DNA from: Eledone cirrhosa
Taxonomy: Eukaryota
Length of the DNA stretch: 64,000 bases
Direction: 5' to 3'
Assembly (NCBI GenBank): GCA_964016885.1
Contig: OZ024744.1
Coordinates: forward strand, 76,694,001 to 76,758,000
A program made the position numbers and the translations under genes. The notes under the pieces were generated by a model that worked only from the letters and a program-made list of their open reading frames with translations, was not told where the DNA came from and did not search any database. Below are positions 33,635-44,616 of this stretch, in pieces. Every line of letters starts with the position of its first letter. Within the stretch, counting starts at the first letter, position 1.

Positions 33635-36600
33635 GTTTCTTTTATTTGCCACCAGGGCATCAAAAGTGGGACAAGTACAAAGGGGGGAGTTTACACAAAA
33701 AAGGCGTCCTCAATAAGGAGGAAGCAATAACAATATATAAAATAAAATAAAATATAACAAAAAATAAAATTTATAACAAAATCCTCAATAGAGAGGAGGC
33801 GCCTTGGGGGGGTCGCACACACCCCCGAAAAAAGTGTGCAACCCTTTTCCTGGAGAACAGAGAGGGGGTGCTCCCTCGTTCCTTCCTCTTTTCCACCTAC
33901 AGGCTTATGTAAAGAGAAGGCCCTTTCACACGGGCCATTCTCGCCACTTTCACCCACCTTTCATAAAAACGACTGGGGTGGAGCACCTCTCTCTCCATCC
34001 TGATCCTTCTTCCGAAATGATATCGGAAGAAACGGACCAGTTGTTGGCCAGAGAGAAAGGTGCCTGACCTCAGTCCTTTCAGACGCGTCTACCATACAAC
34101 TTCTTTCACCATGGCTATTACGCACAGAAACACCGCCTCTCCTTCATCTTTGAAGGGGGGAGGCGGCTTGATCATTACAATAGACTCGGTGGTCAACCGG
34201 ATCGGTCCCACCCTTGACAGCAGTTGTTCGACATAGCCCCACAGATCGGCTACGCCCGAGCAGTGTACCAATGTGTGTGCAACGGTTTCCTCGTCGCAAA
34301 CGCATCTGGGACAGATCTTTTTGGCGGGGTCCCTACCCGGGCGCCCGTGTCTGTAGATCTTTTCTCGAACCGGTAGAGCCCCTCGGTAGCACTGCCAGGC
34401 CAGGGACTTCTGGAAGTTGTCCATAGGTCCCGGGCTGAATGTCCTACCGAACAGGTTGGCCAGTTCGTCCTCCTCCATGTCTAGGGCTTCTCCGAGGGCG
34501 TCGTCGCACCTGCTGCGTACCAGCCCTCTATAGAATGTTGCGGTGGAGTATCCACTGATAACCGGGTCCGCCTGCCAGAGGGCGGTGAGCACCTGGGCAC
34601 ACTCAGTGTGCCAGGCGCCCAGTATTCTCGGTCTTTGCTTGACCCAGGATTGCAGCTCGGTGAGTGAGACGAGTCTGGGAAAGGTTCGTCTCACAAACGA
34701 GGCCCACACCGGTTGACCGGTGAGGAATACGTATAGGTACCGTAGCCTTAATGCGTGTTTACGCATCATTAGCCACGGCATCCCCAGCCCTCCTTTCGAA
34801 GGGTGTTGACAGCAGATGGATCTCCTCACCATAGGAGCCCGCCTCTTCCAAAGGAATTGGAAGAGCGCGCGCTCCATCTTGGCGAGGGTTTCCCTTGGGC
34901 AGGGCACTACGGTCAGGCGGTAGTAGATGACGGACGCTATATAGGTGTTCGCCACCTCCGCCCGACCTTTCAGGGATAGTTTACAACTGGCCCACTTCTG
35001 GGTCAGTGCAAACACCCTGTTCGTAACCTCCGCCCAGTTCTTCTCCACCTGGATGTCCGGTCCGAACCAGACCCCGAGCAACTTCACCGGGCCCTCCGTC
35101 CAGCGTCCGACGACGCCATCGGAGGGCATCGGTCTGCCCCTCCACGTGCCGAGTTGCAAACCGATCGACTTGTCCCGGTTCAGCTTAGCCCCTGTGAACC
35201 TTTCGTACTCCTCCAGTAAGGTGCCGACCGCCCCGATTTCGGAGGCCGTCGACACCATTACTGTCACGTCATCGGCGTAGGCCGACACCGCTTTCCGCAA
35301 TCCCGGTTCCAAAGGGATGCCCTGCAACAACTCCAACTTCCGCAGTAGTGGCTCTAGAGTCAACACATACAGAAGGGAGGAGAGAGGGCACCCTTGTCGG
35401 ATGGACCGCGCGATTTTGAACGGCTCCGAGAGGTAGCCGTTCACCTTGACCCTAGAGCAGATGCGGCTGCTGTGCATAGCATTGATCCAGCCCCTGAAAA
35501 TGGGTCCGAAGCCTGCCGCCGCTAGCACCGCATCCAGGTAACCATGGTCGACCCTATCGAACACCTTAGATTGATCCAAGTTGATCAGAGCCCCACCAAA
35601 GCCGGGTTCATTCCCAACCCTCTCTATGATGTATCGCATGAGGTGGAGGTTGTCATGGATGGACCTGGACGGGATAGCACATGTCTGCGCATCTCCCACC
35701 AGGTTGCTCACGACAAGCGCCAACCTCTTTGCTAGCACCTTGGCCAAAATCTGTAACTCTGTATTTAGCAGAGTTATGGGCCTGAAGTTACTTATTTCAT
35801 CCCCTTTGTTCTCGTCCTTCCTCACTAGCGTGACTACGCACTTGGTCACAGTACAGGGAATTCTCCCGTTCTGTTGCCAGTTGCAGTAGACCGCCTCGAG
35901 GAGATCGGGGAACAAGTCCGGCAAAGCTAGATATAATTCGTATGGAAGACCATCGAGACCCGGGGATTTGCGTTTGCCGCATTGGCTCAGCACGTCCTCT
36001 ATCTCAGCGGCCGAAATCGGCTCCTCGCAGGACTTCGCCTCCCTGTCCGAGAGACGCGACAGGCCGTCGAGGTATGGACCGAAGTCTACATCCCCAACCG
36101 GCTCCCCGCCCCTTCCGAACAGTCGGGCAAAGTGCCTTTGAAAGGCCTCACACATCTGCTTAGGCTCAAGAAACGCCCGTCCATCATGGTCTCGCAAAGA
36201 CCGGATGGTGGATTTAGTTCCACTGTTGGCCTCTGTCGCGCGGGCCCAGCTAACAGCTTTGGCCCCCTCGTTCACTAGAGCACGTATTTTACTTCGGACA
36301 ACGCAGCCTTCGTGCTTCGCGTCGAAAAACTGGTTCAAAGCCGTTCTCGACGCTAGCACTCTGACCACGTCGCCGCTTCTAATTGCCTCTTCTACTCTAT
36401 CTATTAGCTCCCTTTCCTTCCTATTCCTATCCGCAGCTAGAACCTTACTAAATTCTATCGAGACTACTCTAATCTCTCTCTTTAGAGATACCCACCACCT
36501 ACTGTTGACGATCGCTCCAGTCAACCGTTCCTTAACTAACGTACTAATCCGATCCCTGTAAGCTCTACTTGCCGGCAAGGACAAGTTGAGCTTCCAGTAA

Positions 36601-36684
36601 CCGGGGGCCCTGTCTATGCGTTCTATCAAGGTTGACCATGCAGGTCACCAACTTGTGGTCTGAATAGCCAACCATGAGCATTTA
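33635..36684 (-). mobile_element. Tx1/L1-clade LINE copy A (5'-truncated)
   Basis: 846-aa open frame. 3' end GGTGGCAAATAAAAGAAAC abuts ATATCTATATCT; 5' junction abuts (GATA)n. Confidence 0.95.
34089..36629 (-). CDS. LINE ORF2 fragment: reverse transcriptase plus C-terminal Cys/His motif (premature stop near the end; endonuclease lost)
   Basis: GYWKLN, KSPGLDGLP, FRPITLLN, LDQSKVFDRV, RQGCPLS, YADD, GGLG, CPRC...HTLVHC. Confidence 0.9.
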   Translation of the reverse strand: MIERIDRAPGYWKLNLSLPASRAYRDRISTLVKERLTGAIVNSRWWVSLKREIRVVSIEFSKVLAADRNRKERELIDRVEEAIRSGDVVRVLASRTALNQFFDAKHEGCVVRSKIRALVNEGAKAVSWARATEANSGTKSTIRSLRDHDGRAFLEPKQMCEAFQRHFARLFGRGGEPVGDVDFGPYLDGLSRLSDREAKSCEEPISAAEIEDVLSQCGKRKSPGLDGLPYELYLALPDLFPDLLEAVYCNWQQNGRIPCTVTKCVVTLVRKDENKGDEISNFRPITLLNTELQILAKVLAKRLALVVSNLVGDAQTCAIPSRSIHDNLHLMRYIIERVGNEPGFGGALINLDQSKVFDRVDHGYLDAVLAAAGFGPIFRGWINAMHSSRICSRVKVNGYLSEPFKIARSIRQGCPLSSLLYVLTLEPLLRKLELLQGIPLEPGLRKAVSAYADDVTVMVSTASEIGAVGTLLEEYERFTGAKLNRDKSIGLQLGTWRGRPMPSDGVVGRWTEGPVKLLGVWFGPDIQVEKNWAEVTNRVFALTQKWASCKLSLKGRAEVANTYIASVIYYRLTVVPCPRETLAKMERALFQFLWKRRAPMVRRSICCQHPSKGGLGMPWLMMRKHALRLRYLYVFLTGQPVWASFVRRTFPRLVSLTELQSWVKQRPRILGAWHTECAQVLTALWQADPVISGYSTATFYRGLVRSRCDDALGEALDMEEDELANLFGRTFSPGPMDNFQKSLAWQCYRGALPVREKIYRHGRPGRDPAKKICPRCVCDEETVAHTLVHCSGVADLWGYVEQLLSRVGPIRLTTESIVMIKPPPPFKDEGEAVFLCVIAMVKEVVW

Positions 36685-36937
36685 TAGATAGATAGATAGA
36701 TAGATTTCTTTATTTGCCACAAGGGCGCACAAGAAAAGGGGACAATACAAAGACATGCCGGGGATTTTACATACAGTCGTGTAAAAAATATAAAACAAAC
36801 AATTACAGCAATCGAAATCCCCAATAGGGGGGAAGCGCCACAAATGGGTTGTTTAATACGCCGTCGATAGAACAACCCTCAACACCAGGAGCGTGTTGTG
36901 CAGGTGCTCCTTTCTTTCTTTTGCTCTCTTCTTCAAC

Positions 36938-44050: not shown

Positions 44051-44122
44051 AGACAGATAGATAGATAGATAGATAGATAGATAGATAGATAGATAGATAG
44101 ATAGATAGATAGATAGATAGAT

Positions 44123-44507
44123 ATATTTCTTTATTAGCCACAGGGGCACAAAAGAAGGGGACAAATACAAAGGGGGAAGTTTACATACAATAAAAACGTG
44201 TAAAATATTATCACAGATGGAATTTAAAAGTTAGTCGATTTTCCCCAATAGAGGGAGACAGTTTATATGGGTAACACATACCCCCGAAAAAAAATGTGCA
44301 ACCCTCATCTCCAGGAGTACGAAGAGCTTGTACTCCTTTCCTCTCCTCCTCCTTTTCCTCAATCTACAGGCTGATATAGAGAGAAGGCCCATTCACTCGG
44401 GCCATTCTCGCCACTTTCACCCACCTTTCATAAAACTTGCTGGGGTACAGCACCTCTCTCTCCATCCTGATTCTTCTTCCAAAGTGGTATTTGAAAAAAA
44501 GAATCAG
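44123..44507 (-). mobile_element. Tx1/L1-clade LINE copy E (3' fragment, similar to copy C)
   Basis: FFKYHFGRRIRMERE...ISL; (GATA)n at 44506-44582. Confidence 0.9.
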
Positions 44508-44616
44508 ATAAATAGATAGATAGATAGATAGATAGATAGATAGATAGATAGATAGATAGATAGATAGATAGATAGATAGATATGAGAAAAACCACAGGCC
44601 CTCCATCTCAACTCTA

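What the first reader, a model, noticed from the sequence alone, without database searches (positions are those of the whole stretch)
33635..44582. Five Tx1-clade LINEs stacked head-to-tail in one (GATA)n microsatellite: probable GATA-repeat-specific retrotransposon family
Seen: five copies lie on the minus strand. Each 3' end (...TGGCAAATAAA/TGGCTAATAAA-AGAAA) is followed by TATC-type repeats and each 5' junction abuts (GATA)n. Truncation points all differ, and the 3' UTRs fall into three groups (A/D, C/E, B). Established: Tx1-group elements are often sequence-specific, and Kibi and Koshi target TC and TTC repeats. Inference: repeated independent, strand-specific insertion into (TATC)n by an APE endonuclease with tetranucleotide-repeat preference. 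I do not know of a described GATA-specific family but cannot check that here.
Basis: partly seen in the sequence, partly recalled or inferred. Interest (0 to 1): 0.75.

Follow-up and report, generated by a model that had tools for sequence, protein, structure and literature searches.

The report
LINE family targeting GATA microsatellites
These are five separate insertions of an abundant, still partly intact jumping gene (an L1/Tx1-type LINE) that sits in one orientation at the same step of TATC/GATA repeats across this animal genome and so piles up head to tail, likely because its own DNA-nicking enzyme prefers that motif; repeat-seeking LINEs are known, but I found no report of this target.

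Summary
Observation confirmed. Five minus-strand LINE copies from three subfamilies, each closer to a dispersed copy than to its neighbour, so they are not a local duplication. The family has at least 18,559 ends followed by NN-TATC; 5,532 of 6,131 exact ends of one subfamily. In a positional sample, 61 of 74 5' junctions abut TATC and 0 abut GATA; 29 of 41 without an earlier copy (background about 2%). Target-site duplications of 10-26 bp start two bases after AATAAAGAAA. I saw no poly(A) (0 of 90) and usually no added repeat tail, so TATC is a target, not a tail. A single TATCT can serve. Intact copies exist: APE-RT-zinc finger ORF2, predicted RRM-RRM-CCHC ORF1. A sister clade, with one copy in this window, prefers (ATT)n. 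Endonuclease choice is inferred; selection at priming is not excluded. Tx1 families on (TC)n, (TTC)n and (TTCC/TTTC)n are published; I found no GATA one, but Repbase and Dfam could not be searched. This scan already reported this family on other DNA at least eight times.

The parts
44507..44582 (.). (GATA)n array on + strand = (TATC)n upstream of copy E; outer 5' flank of the stack
   Evidence: 17 perfect units, TRF 19.2 copies
44126..44506 (-). Copy E: 381-bp 5'-truncated LINE (end of ORF2 + 3' UTR), ends AATAAAGAAA-TA; youngest copy
   Evidence: 99.7% to dispersed copies
44051..44123 (.). (GATA)17-18 spacer between E and D
42545..44050 (-). Copy D: 1.5-kb 5'-truncated, open C-terminal ORF2 with zf-RVT, ends AATAAAAGAAA-CT
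   Evidence: 99.7% to a copy on contig C4 (L123) vs 96.3% to neighbour A
42531..42542 (.). (GATA)3 spacer between D and C
41980..42530 (-). Copy C: 551-bp 5'-truncated with a small internal deletion, ends AATAAAGAAA-CA; older copy
   Evidence: best dispersed match 93.7% vs 92.1% to E
41858..41977 (.). (GATA)28-30 spacer, grading into TCTCTCTATC at the 5' end of B
36705..41857 (-). Copy B: full-length (5' UTR, ORF1, APE endonuclease, RT, zinc finger, 3' UTR), broken by stops, frameshifts and a deletion of about 630 bp in RT near 38158; ends AATAAAGAAA-TC
   Evidence: best dispersed match 96.6% over the last 380 bp
36685..36704 (.). (GATA)4-5 spacer between B and A
33636..36684 (-). Copy A: 3.05-kb 5'-truncated (no ORF1 or endonuclease); 851-codon frame 34089-36644 with RVT_1 and zf-RVT; ends AATAAAAGAAA-CA
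   Evidence: best dispersed match 97.9%
33551..33635 (.). Outer 3' flank: TATCTATATC(TA)n then (GA)n on the element strand, a compound microsatellite
1735..2441 (+). Truncated copy of the sister lineage, flanked on both sides by (ATT)n; ends AATAAATGAAA-TC-ATTATT (outside the finding)

Best explanation
The array is five independent insertions of a family of L1/Tx1-type LINEs that sit in one orientation at TATC motifs and are flanked by 10-26 bp target-site duplications, likely because their APE endonuclease nicks the GATA strand at or within 1-2 nt of 5'-GATA^GATA and that nick would prime reverse transcription. Shown: orientation, phase, duplications, no poly(A), independent origin of the five copies, intact ORF1 and ORF2 in other copies. 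Inferred: target-primed reverse transcription (established for APE LINEs) starting two bases after AATAAAGAAA, and endonuclease-based site choice. Each insertion leaves TATC on both sides, so the target survives and is duplicated, and later copies of any subfamily can land at the same spot in the same orientation. That explains the head-to-tail stacks.
For: Genome-wide: 5,532 of 6,131 exact C/E-type ends are followed by NN-TATC; 18,559 family ends with NN-TATC, control 0. Positional sample, the first 90 such ends on contig C1: 74 with the 5' junction in view, 61 TATC, 0 GATA; 29 of 41 with no earlier copy. Similarity-picked sample: 154 of 202 junctions TATC and 1 GATA, against 49 of 1,988 random flank points and 113 of 7,535 window points (6 of the 48 negatives are artefacts of one reference). 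Duplications: 34 candidates flagged (19 of 115 two-ended copies, 15 of 74). After dropping matches to a neighbour's own end, duplications that run into a neighbouring copy, one 78-bp case and three in another register (L083, L123b, L331), 17 start exactly at +2 (10-26 bp, median 16, 5' microhomology included). The unduplicated base before them is C in 15 of 17. L340 inserted at TATC|TATAAA, so the left, non-priming half carries the motif there. No poly(A) in 90 of 90 ends. Stacking: among the first 100 ends listed, 35 neighbour pairs lie within 6.5 kb (2.7 expected) and 34 are same-strand. ORF2 has Exo_endo_phos, RVT_1 and zf-RVT, with the APE motifs aligned to human L1 ORF2p. Both ORFs are open in L343 and L344. 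TATC subfamilies form one clade (95/98), next to an ATT-preferring clade (97/97).
Against: No biochemistry. Junction sequence cannot separate nicking specificity from priming selection, and the nick position is ambiguous by 1-2 nt. 13 of 74 positional junctions lack TATC (12 of 41 unstacked); some may be later deletions or rearrangements, which I did not resolve. The endonuclease hairpin region has the same length and differs at few positions between TATC and ATT families, so no clear determinant is visible. Some copies lie in (TC)n: 103 ends read YATCT, 92 of the first 100 listed being CA, and 3 of the 4 seen in my sample lie in TC-type repeats. In L088/L089 the 3' side has one more TATC unit than the 5' side.
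Confidence: 0.75

Rival explanations
1. Site choice happens mainly at priming. The RNA would read through a few donor-flank repeats (UAUC), and only nicks whose 3' end anneals to them get extended, so the target is inherited from the donor's flank and a lax endonuclease suffices.
For: AATAAA lies only about 6-7 nt before the junction and no poly(A) is copied, so the RNA end probably lies inside the downstream repeat (inference). The primer-side bases +3..+7 are near-invariant (TATCT in 84-89 of 90 per position). TATC and ATT sisters have similar endonuclease hairpins. One extra unit in L088/L089.
Against: The non-priming left half is conserved (C in 15 of 17, full TATC in 10 of 17). L340 matches only TAT on the primer side but TATCTATC on the other. 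In 7 sites with a bounded left edge, no units were added. PMC4494074 (passage read) states that target choice is mainly set by the endonuclease.
Confidence: 0.2
2. (TATC)n is a templated 3' tail, and the 5' repeats are merely tails of earlier copies.
For: 33 of 74 sampled copies directly follow an earlier copy.
Against: 29 of 41 copies with no earlier copy still have TATC at the 5' junction. Duplications begin at +2 and run into unique flank, e.g. L126 with one TATC and no added units.
Confidence: 0.02
3. The stack arose by local tandem duplication or unequal crossing-over between the repeats.
For: This does occur elsewhere: units with identical truncation points in L104-L107, L109, L112, L114, L314/L315 and L339.
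Against: In this window all five truncation points differ, three subfamilies are mixed, and each paired copy is closer to a dispersed copy than to its sibling: D 99.7 vs 96.3, E 99.7 vs 92.1, A 97.9 vs 96.3, C 93.7 vs 92.1. The margins for A and C are small.
Confidence: 0.02
4. Insertion is random and copies only survive in repeat-rich, neutral DNA.
For: The genome is very rich in microsatellites. Passive accumulation is described for Waldo-A/B (PMC3812793, passage read).
Against: Survival gives neither orientation (61 vs 0) nor nucleotide phase (90% NN-TATC). The window's only GATA arrays are those at the junctions.
Confidence: 0.01

Closest known systems
Kibi (TC)n and Koshi (TTC)n of teleosts; crocodilian Tx1 families (Tx1-1_Crp group) on (TTCC)n/(TTTC)n (PMC4494074: passages and section 15 read; PMC3812793: passages read)
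   Same: APE-type L1/Tx1 non-LTR element inserting into a pyrimidine-rich-strand microsatellite; tetranucleotide targets are already known in this clade; some copies here lie in (TC)n.
   Different: The target is TATC/GATA, which appears in neither main text as a target. The host is an invertebrate-like genome (likely an octopod: inferred from repeat make-up and size, not tested). Kinship to Kibi or Koshi was not tested because no named sequences were available. Figure 3 and the supplements of PMC4494074 could not be seen.
Human LINE-1 ORF2p (PDB 8sxt, 8uw3)
   Same: Best solved relative, E 1.9e-51 over residues 7-861; same domain order; duplications of similar size (L1 sizes recalled).
   Different: No poly(A) tail at insertions; predicted RRM-RRM-CCHC (type I) ORF1 instead of Transposase_22; strict motif and orientation.
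Dong (TAA)n, Waldo (ACAY)n, Mino (AC)n and SART1 (TTAGG)n (PMC3812793 passages; PMC7265360 abstract and outline only)
   Same: Non-LTR elements that insert into simple repeats and keep the target. The sister clade here uses the same repeat as Dong.
   Different: Different clades (recalled). SART1Bm needs at least three repeats and a long poly(A) (abstract), whereas a single TATCT can serve here and no poly(A) is copied.
L1-Tx1 families in the Octopus vulgaris repeat annotation (PMC13282606: part 1 of 3 and term search read)
   Same: 13 recently active L1-Tx1 families with 421 insertions are listed in a similar kind of genome.
   Different: The main text has no mention of targets or GATA. Whether these are the same families was not tested, and supplements were not seen.

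Membership tests
APE-type non-LTR retrotransposon, L1 group | ORF2 with APE endonuclease, RT and C-terminal zinc finger | tested here: met
   Pfam Exo_endo_phos 2e-12, RVT_1 7.5e-27, zf-RVT 4e-6; human L1 ORF2p is the top PDB hit
APE-type non-LTR retrotransposon, L1 group | 5' truncations, fixed 3' end, target-site duplications | tested here: met
Tx1 clade | RT phylogeny groups with Tx1 rather than vertebrate or plant L1 | tested here: inconclusive
   (62 rows; 19 near-redundant relatives and short hits left out): falls in a group with fish protein P0046 (ZCCHC3-type RRMs + CCHC) at 84/89, apart from fish P0070 and plant L1s. The labels 'Tx1-like' and 'L1-like' are mine (domain content, recall). 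No Repbase Tx1, Kibi, Koshi or Keno sequence was available.
Tx1 clade | Type I ORF1: RRM(s) plus CCHC knuckle (PMC5203782 passages) | tested here: met
   AlphaFold model pLDDT 83.5; the top Foldseek hits are tandem-RRM proteins, best E 7e-5, TM about 0.3; zf-CCHC in 9 of 15 aligned members. No sequence-level match to P0046 ORF1. The feature is shared with plant L1s.
Target-specific family (Kojima 2015 criterion) | One sequence type in more than 20% of flanks (PMC4494074 methods passage) | tested here: met
   90% of 3' flanks and 82% of 5' flanks
Kibi/Koshi lineage | Target (TC)n or (TTC)n | tested here: not met
   The main target is TATC; (TC)n is a minority
Kibi/Koshi lineage | RT clusters with Kibi, Koshi and Tx1-1_Crp | not testable with these tools
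   No named reference sequences. The nearest outside relatives (about 40%) form head-to-tail arrays without GATA junctions, which hints at an independent origin but does not show it.
Endonuclease-determined targeting | Purified endonuclease nicks the target selectively | not testable with these tools
   needs a bench assay

The most novel reading that the evidence does not exclude
An independent origin of microsatellite targeting in an invertebrate Tx1-like lineage that then switched target between sister clades (TATC versus ATT) with almost no change in the endonuclease hairpin. The target would be set partly by repeat sequence read through at the RNA's 3' end, so preference is inherited from the donor's flank. 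By duplicating 10-26 bp of repeat at tens of thousands of insertions, the family would be a major builder of the genome's GATA arrays.
Probability: 0.2. Interest if true: 0.75.

Novelty: new variant of a known kind. Interest (0 to 1): 0.45.

Why it matters
It adds a GATA/TATC target to the short list of microsatellite-specific LINEs, with very large numbers (at least 18,559 ends) and naturally intact copies. PMC3812793 says the mechanism of microsatellite targeting by APE elements is not well understood. Two sister clades with about 60-70% identical ORF2 but different repeat targets in one genome make the endonuclease-versus-priming question directly testable. It also links LINE activity to the growth and interruption of GATA arrays, and warns that GATA markers in such genomes often flank a repeat. 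The strategy itself is known, and this scan has flagged the same family many times, so the surprise is moderate.

Tried and rejected
Metagenome scan with P0003 alone found no relative. The alignment scan gave 73 distant loci, mostly 21-33% to the query. The ORF1 core has no homologue at near lengths in the protein collection and no BLASTP match to the fish ORF1. The ESM Atlas did not hold ORF1. Rfam found nothing in window 30000-48000 and nothing in 7 loci of the outside tandem arrays, so their target is unknown. Public runs: no RNA holder listed. Laying contigs of 4 runs on L100 showed no empty-site joint, which says nothing about polymorphism. The endonuclease-only PDB search gave one clear hit (2v0s, E 3.6e-4). 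Hairpin comparison did not reveal a determinant. The idea that insertions favour one end of an array was not supported (left run longer in 34, shorter in 28 of 74). Nick-register analysis from YATCT ends fits either an A/G or a T/A nick and was left undecided. The automatic 5'-junction calls for long ATT-sister loci ran into other repeats and were not counted. Paper searches: TATC+microsatellite+Tx1+non-LTR gave 0, GATA+microsatellite+Tx1+retrotransposon+target gave 0; some searches gave listings in which I saw no GATA-specific family. Repbase, Dfam, Kojima and Fujiwara 2004 and subscription journals were not searchable.
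Full report
1. Observation. Reading 33100-44900 on the minus strand and self-alignment show five head-to-tail copies: E 44126-44506, D 42545-44050, C 41980-42530, B 36705-41857 and A 33636-36684. Each ends TGGC(A/T)AATAAA(A)GAAA, two bases, TATC, and each 5' junction abuts TATC units. The five perfect runs (17, 17, 3, 28 and 4 units) are the only such arrays in the window. Truncation points all differ. 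B is full length but has a deletion of about 630 bp in RT and broken frames. The flank after A is a compound TATC/(TA)n/(GA)n repeat.

2. Independent insertions. Over the last 380 bp each copy's best match among fetched loci is elsewhere: D 99.7% (L123) against 96.3% to A; E 99.7% against 92.1% to C; A 97.9%; C 93.7%; B 96.6%. The margins for A and C are small, those for D and E large. Local duplication does occur in other arrays, where units share one truncation point (L104-L107, L109, L112, L114, L314/L315, L339), but not here.

3. The family. The genome has 3.0 Gb and the window lies on contig C28. An exact 25-base C/E-type end occurs 6,131 times, 5,532 times followed by NN-TATC. A looser family pattern with NN-TATC occurs 18,559 times, control 0. 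Among the first 100 of these, 35 neighbour pairs lie within 6.5 kb (2.7 expected if uniform), 34 on the same strand, and 52 ends are in stacks. Stacking is therefore a family trait. L133, L134, L343 and L344 carry an open ORF2 of 1,145 aa from the first Met; L343 and L344 also have an open ORF1. ORF2 has Exo_endo_phos, RVT_1 and zf-RVT and aligns to human L1 ORF2p, E 1.9e-51. The ORF1 core folds with pLDDT 83.5, resembles tandem-RRM proteins and ends in a CCHC knuckle: a type I ORF1, consistent with Tx1 per PMC5203782 (passages). In an RT tree of 62 rows the family sits with about 40%-identical unnamed relatives (100/100) inside a group that holds a fish protein with ZCCHC3-type domains (84/89), away from a fish L1-like protein and plant L1s. 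The labels are mine and no named Tx1 sequence was available, so Tx1 membership is likely but not settled.

4. Target or tail. In 160 loci picked by similarity, 154 of 202 distinct 5' junctions (identity at least 85%, not at a locus edge) had a TATC-phase 8-mer with at most one mismatch, and 1 had the opposite orientation. Controls were 49 of 1,988 flank points and 113 of 7,535 window points. Six negatives are artefacts of one reference, and several full-length B copies have (TC)n between the TATC run and the element. In a positional sample, the first 90 exact ends on C1, 16 ran off the locus. Of the other 74, 61 were TATC and 0 GATA; 29 of 41 with no earlier copy upstream and 32 of 33 with one. 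Positions +3 to +7 after GAAA read T, A, T, C, T in 89, 84, 89, 84 and 88 of 90; the two bases before are CA 46, TA 37, TC 6, CC 1. No poly(A) follows any of the 90 ends.

5. Duplications. The scripts flagged 19 of 115 two-ended copies and 15 of 74 as having a non-repeat duplication. I dropped matches to a neighbour's own end or ambiguous (L010, L088, L290, L302, L328, L330, L360, L367), duplications running into a neighbouring copy (L109, L112, L114, L314, L339), one of 78 bp (L120) and three in another register (L083, L123b, L331). The remaining 17 start exactly two bases after GAAA and are 10-26 bp, median 16, including 5' microhomology. The base before is C in 15 and the four before are TATC in 10. 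L126 inserted at GAGC|TATCTTATG, one unit with nothing added. L340 inserted at TATC|TATAAA, so the bases after the junction come from the target. In seven sites with a bounded left edge no units were added; L088/L089 has one extra unit. Unstacked copies have a median of 3 perfect units on each side, and 17 of 41 have five or more on the left. The target is thus a short motif that GATA arrays supply densely. A minority of copies lie in (TC)n.

6. Mechanism. Established for APE LINEs: nick, target-primed reverse transcription, second nick, duplication. Inferred here: a nick on the GATA strand at or within 1-2 nt of GATA^GATA, reverse transcription starting just past AATAAAGAAA-NN, and a second nick about 10-20 bp away. 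The repeat is kept on both sides, so stacks grow in one orientation. The main rival is selection at priming by read-through UAUC in the RNA. It is favoured by the short distance from AATAAA to the junction and by the absence of poly(A). It is disfavoured by conservation on the non-priming side and by L340. I put the endonuclease reading at about 0.75 and priming at 0.2.

7. Sister clade. Earlier scan notes mentioned an ATT-targeting sister, which I tested. The window holds one copy at 1735-2441 (+) with (ATT)n on both sides. Of 30 loci, 24 have ATT after the 3' end; 7 of 19 visible 5' junctions are ATT and 0 are TATC. These copies are older, and several negatives look like internal deletions. 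ORF2 is about 60-70% identical. In a 20-row tree, TATC subfamilies (95/98) and ATT copies (97/97) are separate clades within one lineage (100/100). The endonuclease hairpin region has the same length in both. The nearest outside relatives, in a genome bin labelled bacterial but likely carrying animal host DNA (inference), form head-to-tail arrays of full-length copies without GATA junctions.

8. Literature. PMC4494074 (passages and section 15): Kibi (TC)n, Koshi (TTC)n and crocodilian Tx1 on (TTCC)n/(TTTC)n; no GATA or TATC in the main text; figure and supplements unseen. PMC3812793 (passages) lists ACAY, AC, TC, TTC and TAA targets and calls the mechanism not well understood. PMC13282606 (part 1 of 3 and term search) lists active L1-Tx1 families in Octopus vulgaris without targets. 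PMC7265360: abstract and outline only. Searches for TATC or GATA with Tx1 returned 0 papers; other searches were seen as listings only. Repbase and Dfam were not available, so a prior database annotation is possible. That the host is an octopod is inference from genome size and repeat make-up, also voiced in earlier notes, and was not tested.

9. Verdict. Real and well supported: a new target for a known strategy, already noted by this scan on other DNA (10 findings held the search words, 8 shown). Interest 0.45.

Noticed in passing
window 1735-2463 (+): Truncated sister-lineage LINE flanked on both sides by (ATT)n; the family has about 3,119 search candidates and prefers ATT repeats.
   Followed up: yes
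window 22646-23026, 24150-24770, 46106-46448; also after the LINE end in L385, L390, L392, L396, L398: Head-to-tail arrays of a short repeat of about 150-230 bp that looks like a SINE and begins or ends in (ATT)n; it often follows ATT-sister LINE ends and may be mobilised by that LINE.
   Followed up: no
5' ends of full-length copies, e.g. window 41858-41870, L130, L133, L343: Full-length copies of three subfamilies with unrelated 5' UTRs usually have a TCTCT(C)-type stretch between the TATC run and the element, which may mark a start inside or next to the repeat.
   Followed up: no
L234-L277 (record CAXXMW01, titled Arenicella bin): A bacterial genome bin holds dozens of near-intact animal-type LINEs in 6.4-6.8 kb head-to-tail arrays, likely host DNA contamination; no Rfam hit and no microsatellite at the junctions.
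   Followed up: partly
L274:3036-3199 and 9961-10137: A distant Tx1-like element (27% to the query) lies between two U1 snRNA genes in another bin; it may be a U1-array-specific element.
   Followed up: no
G000:C3:10.10-10.12 Mb (L104-L107); C1:42.06-42.08 Mb (L314/L315); C1:63.92-63.93 Mb (L343/L344): Exact-period tandem runs of long or full-length copies; L104-L107 and L314/L315 share junctions, pointing to secondary amplification by unequal exchange or read-through.
   Followed up: partly
window 5716-6571, 10405-10608, 46589-47071: Very long trinucleotide arrays: (TGG)~285, (AAG)~68 and (ATC)~161.
   Followed up: no
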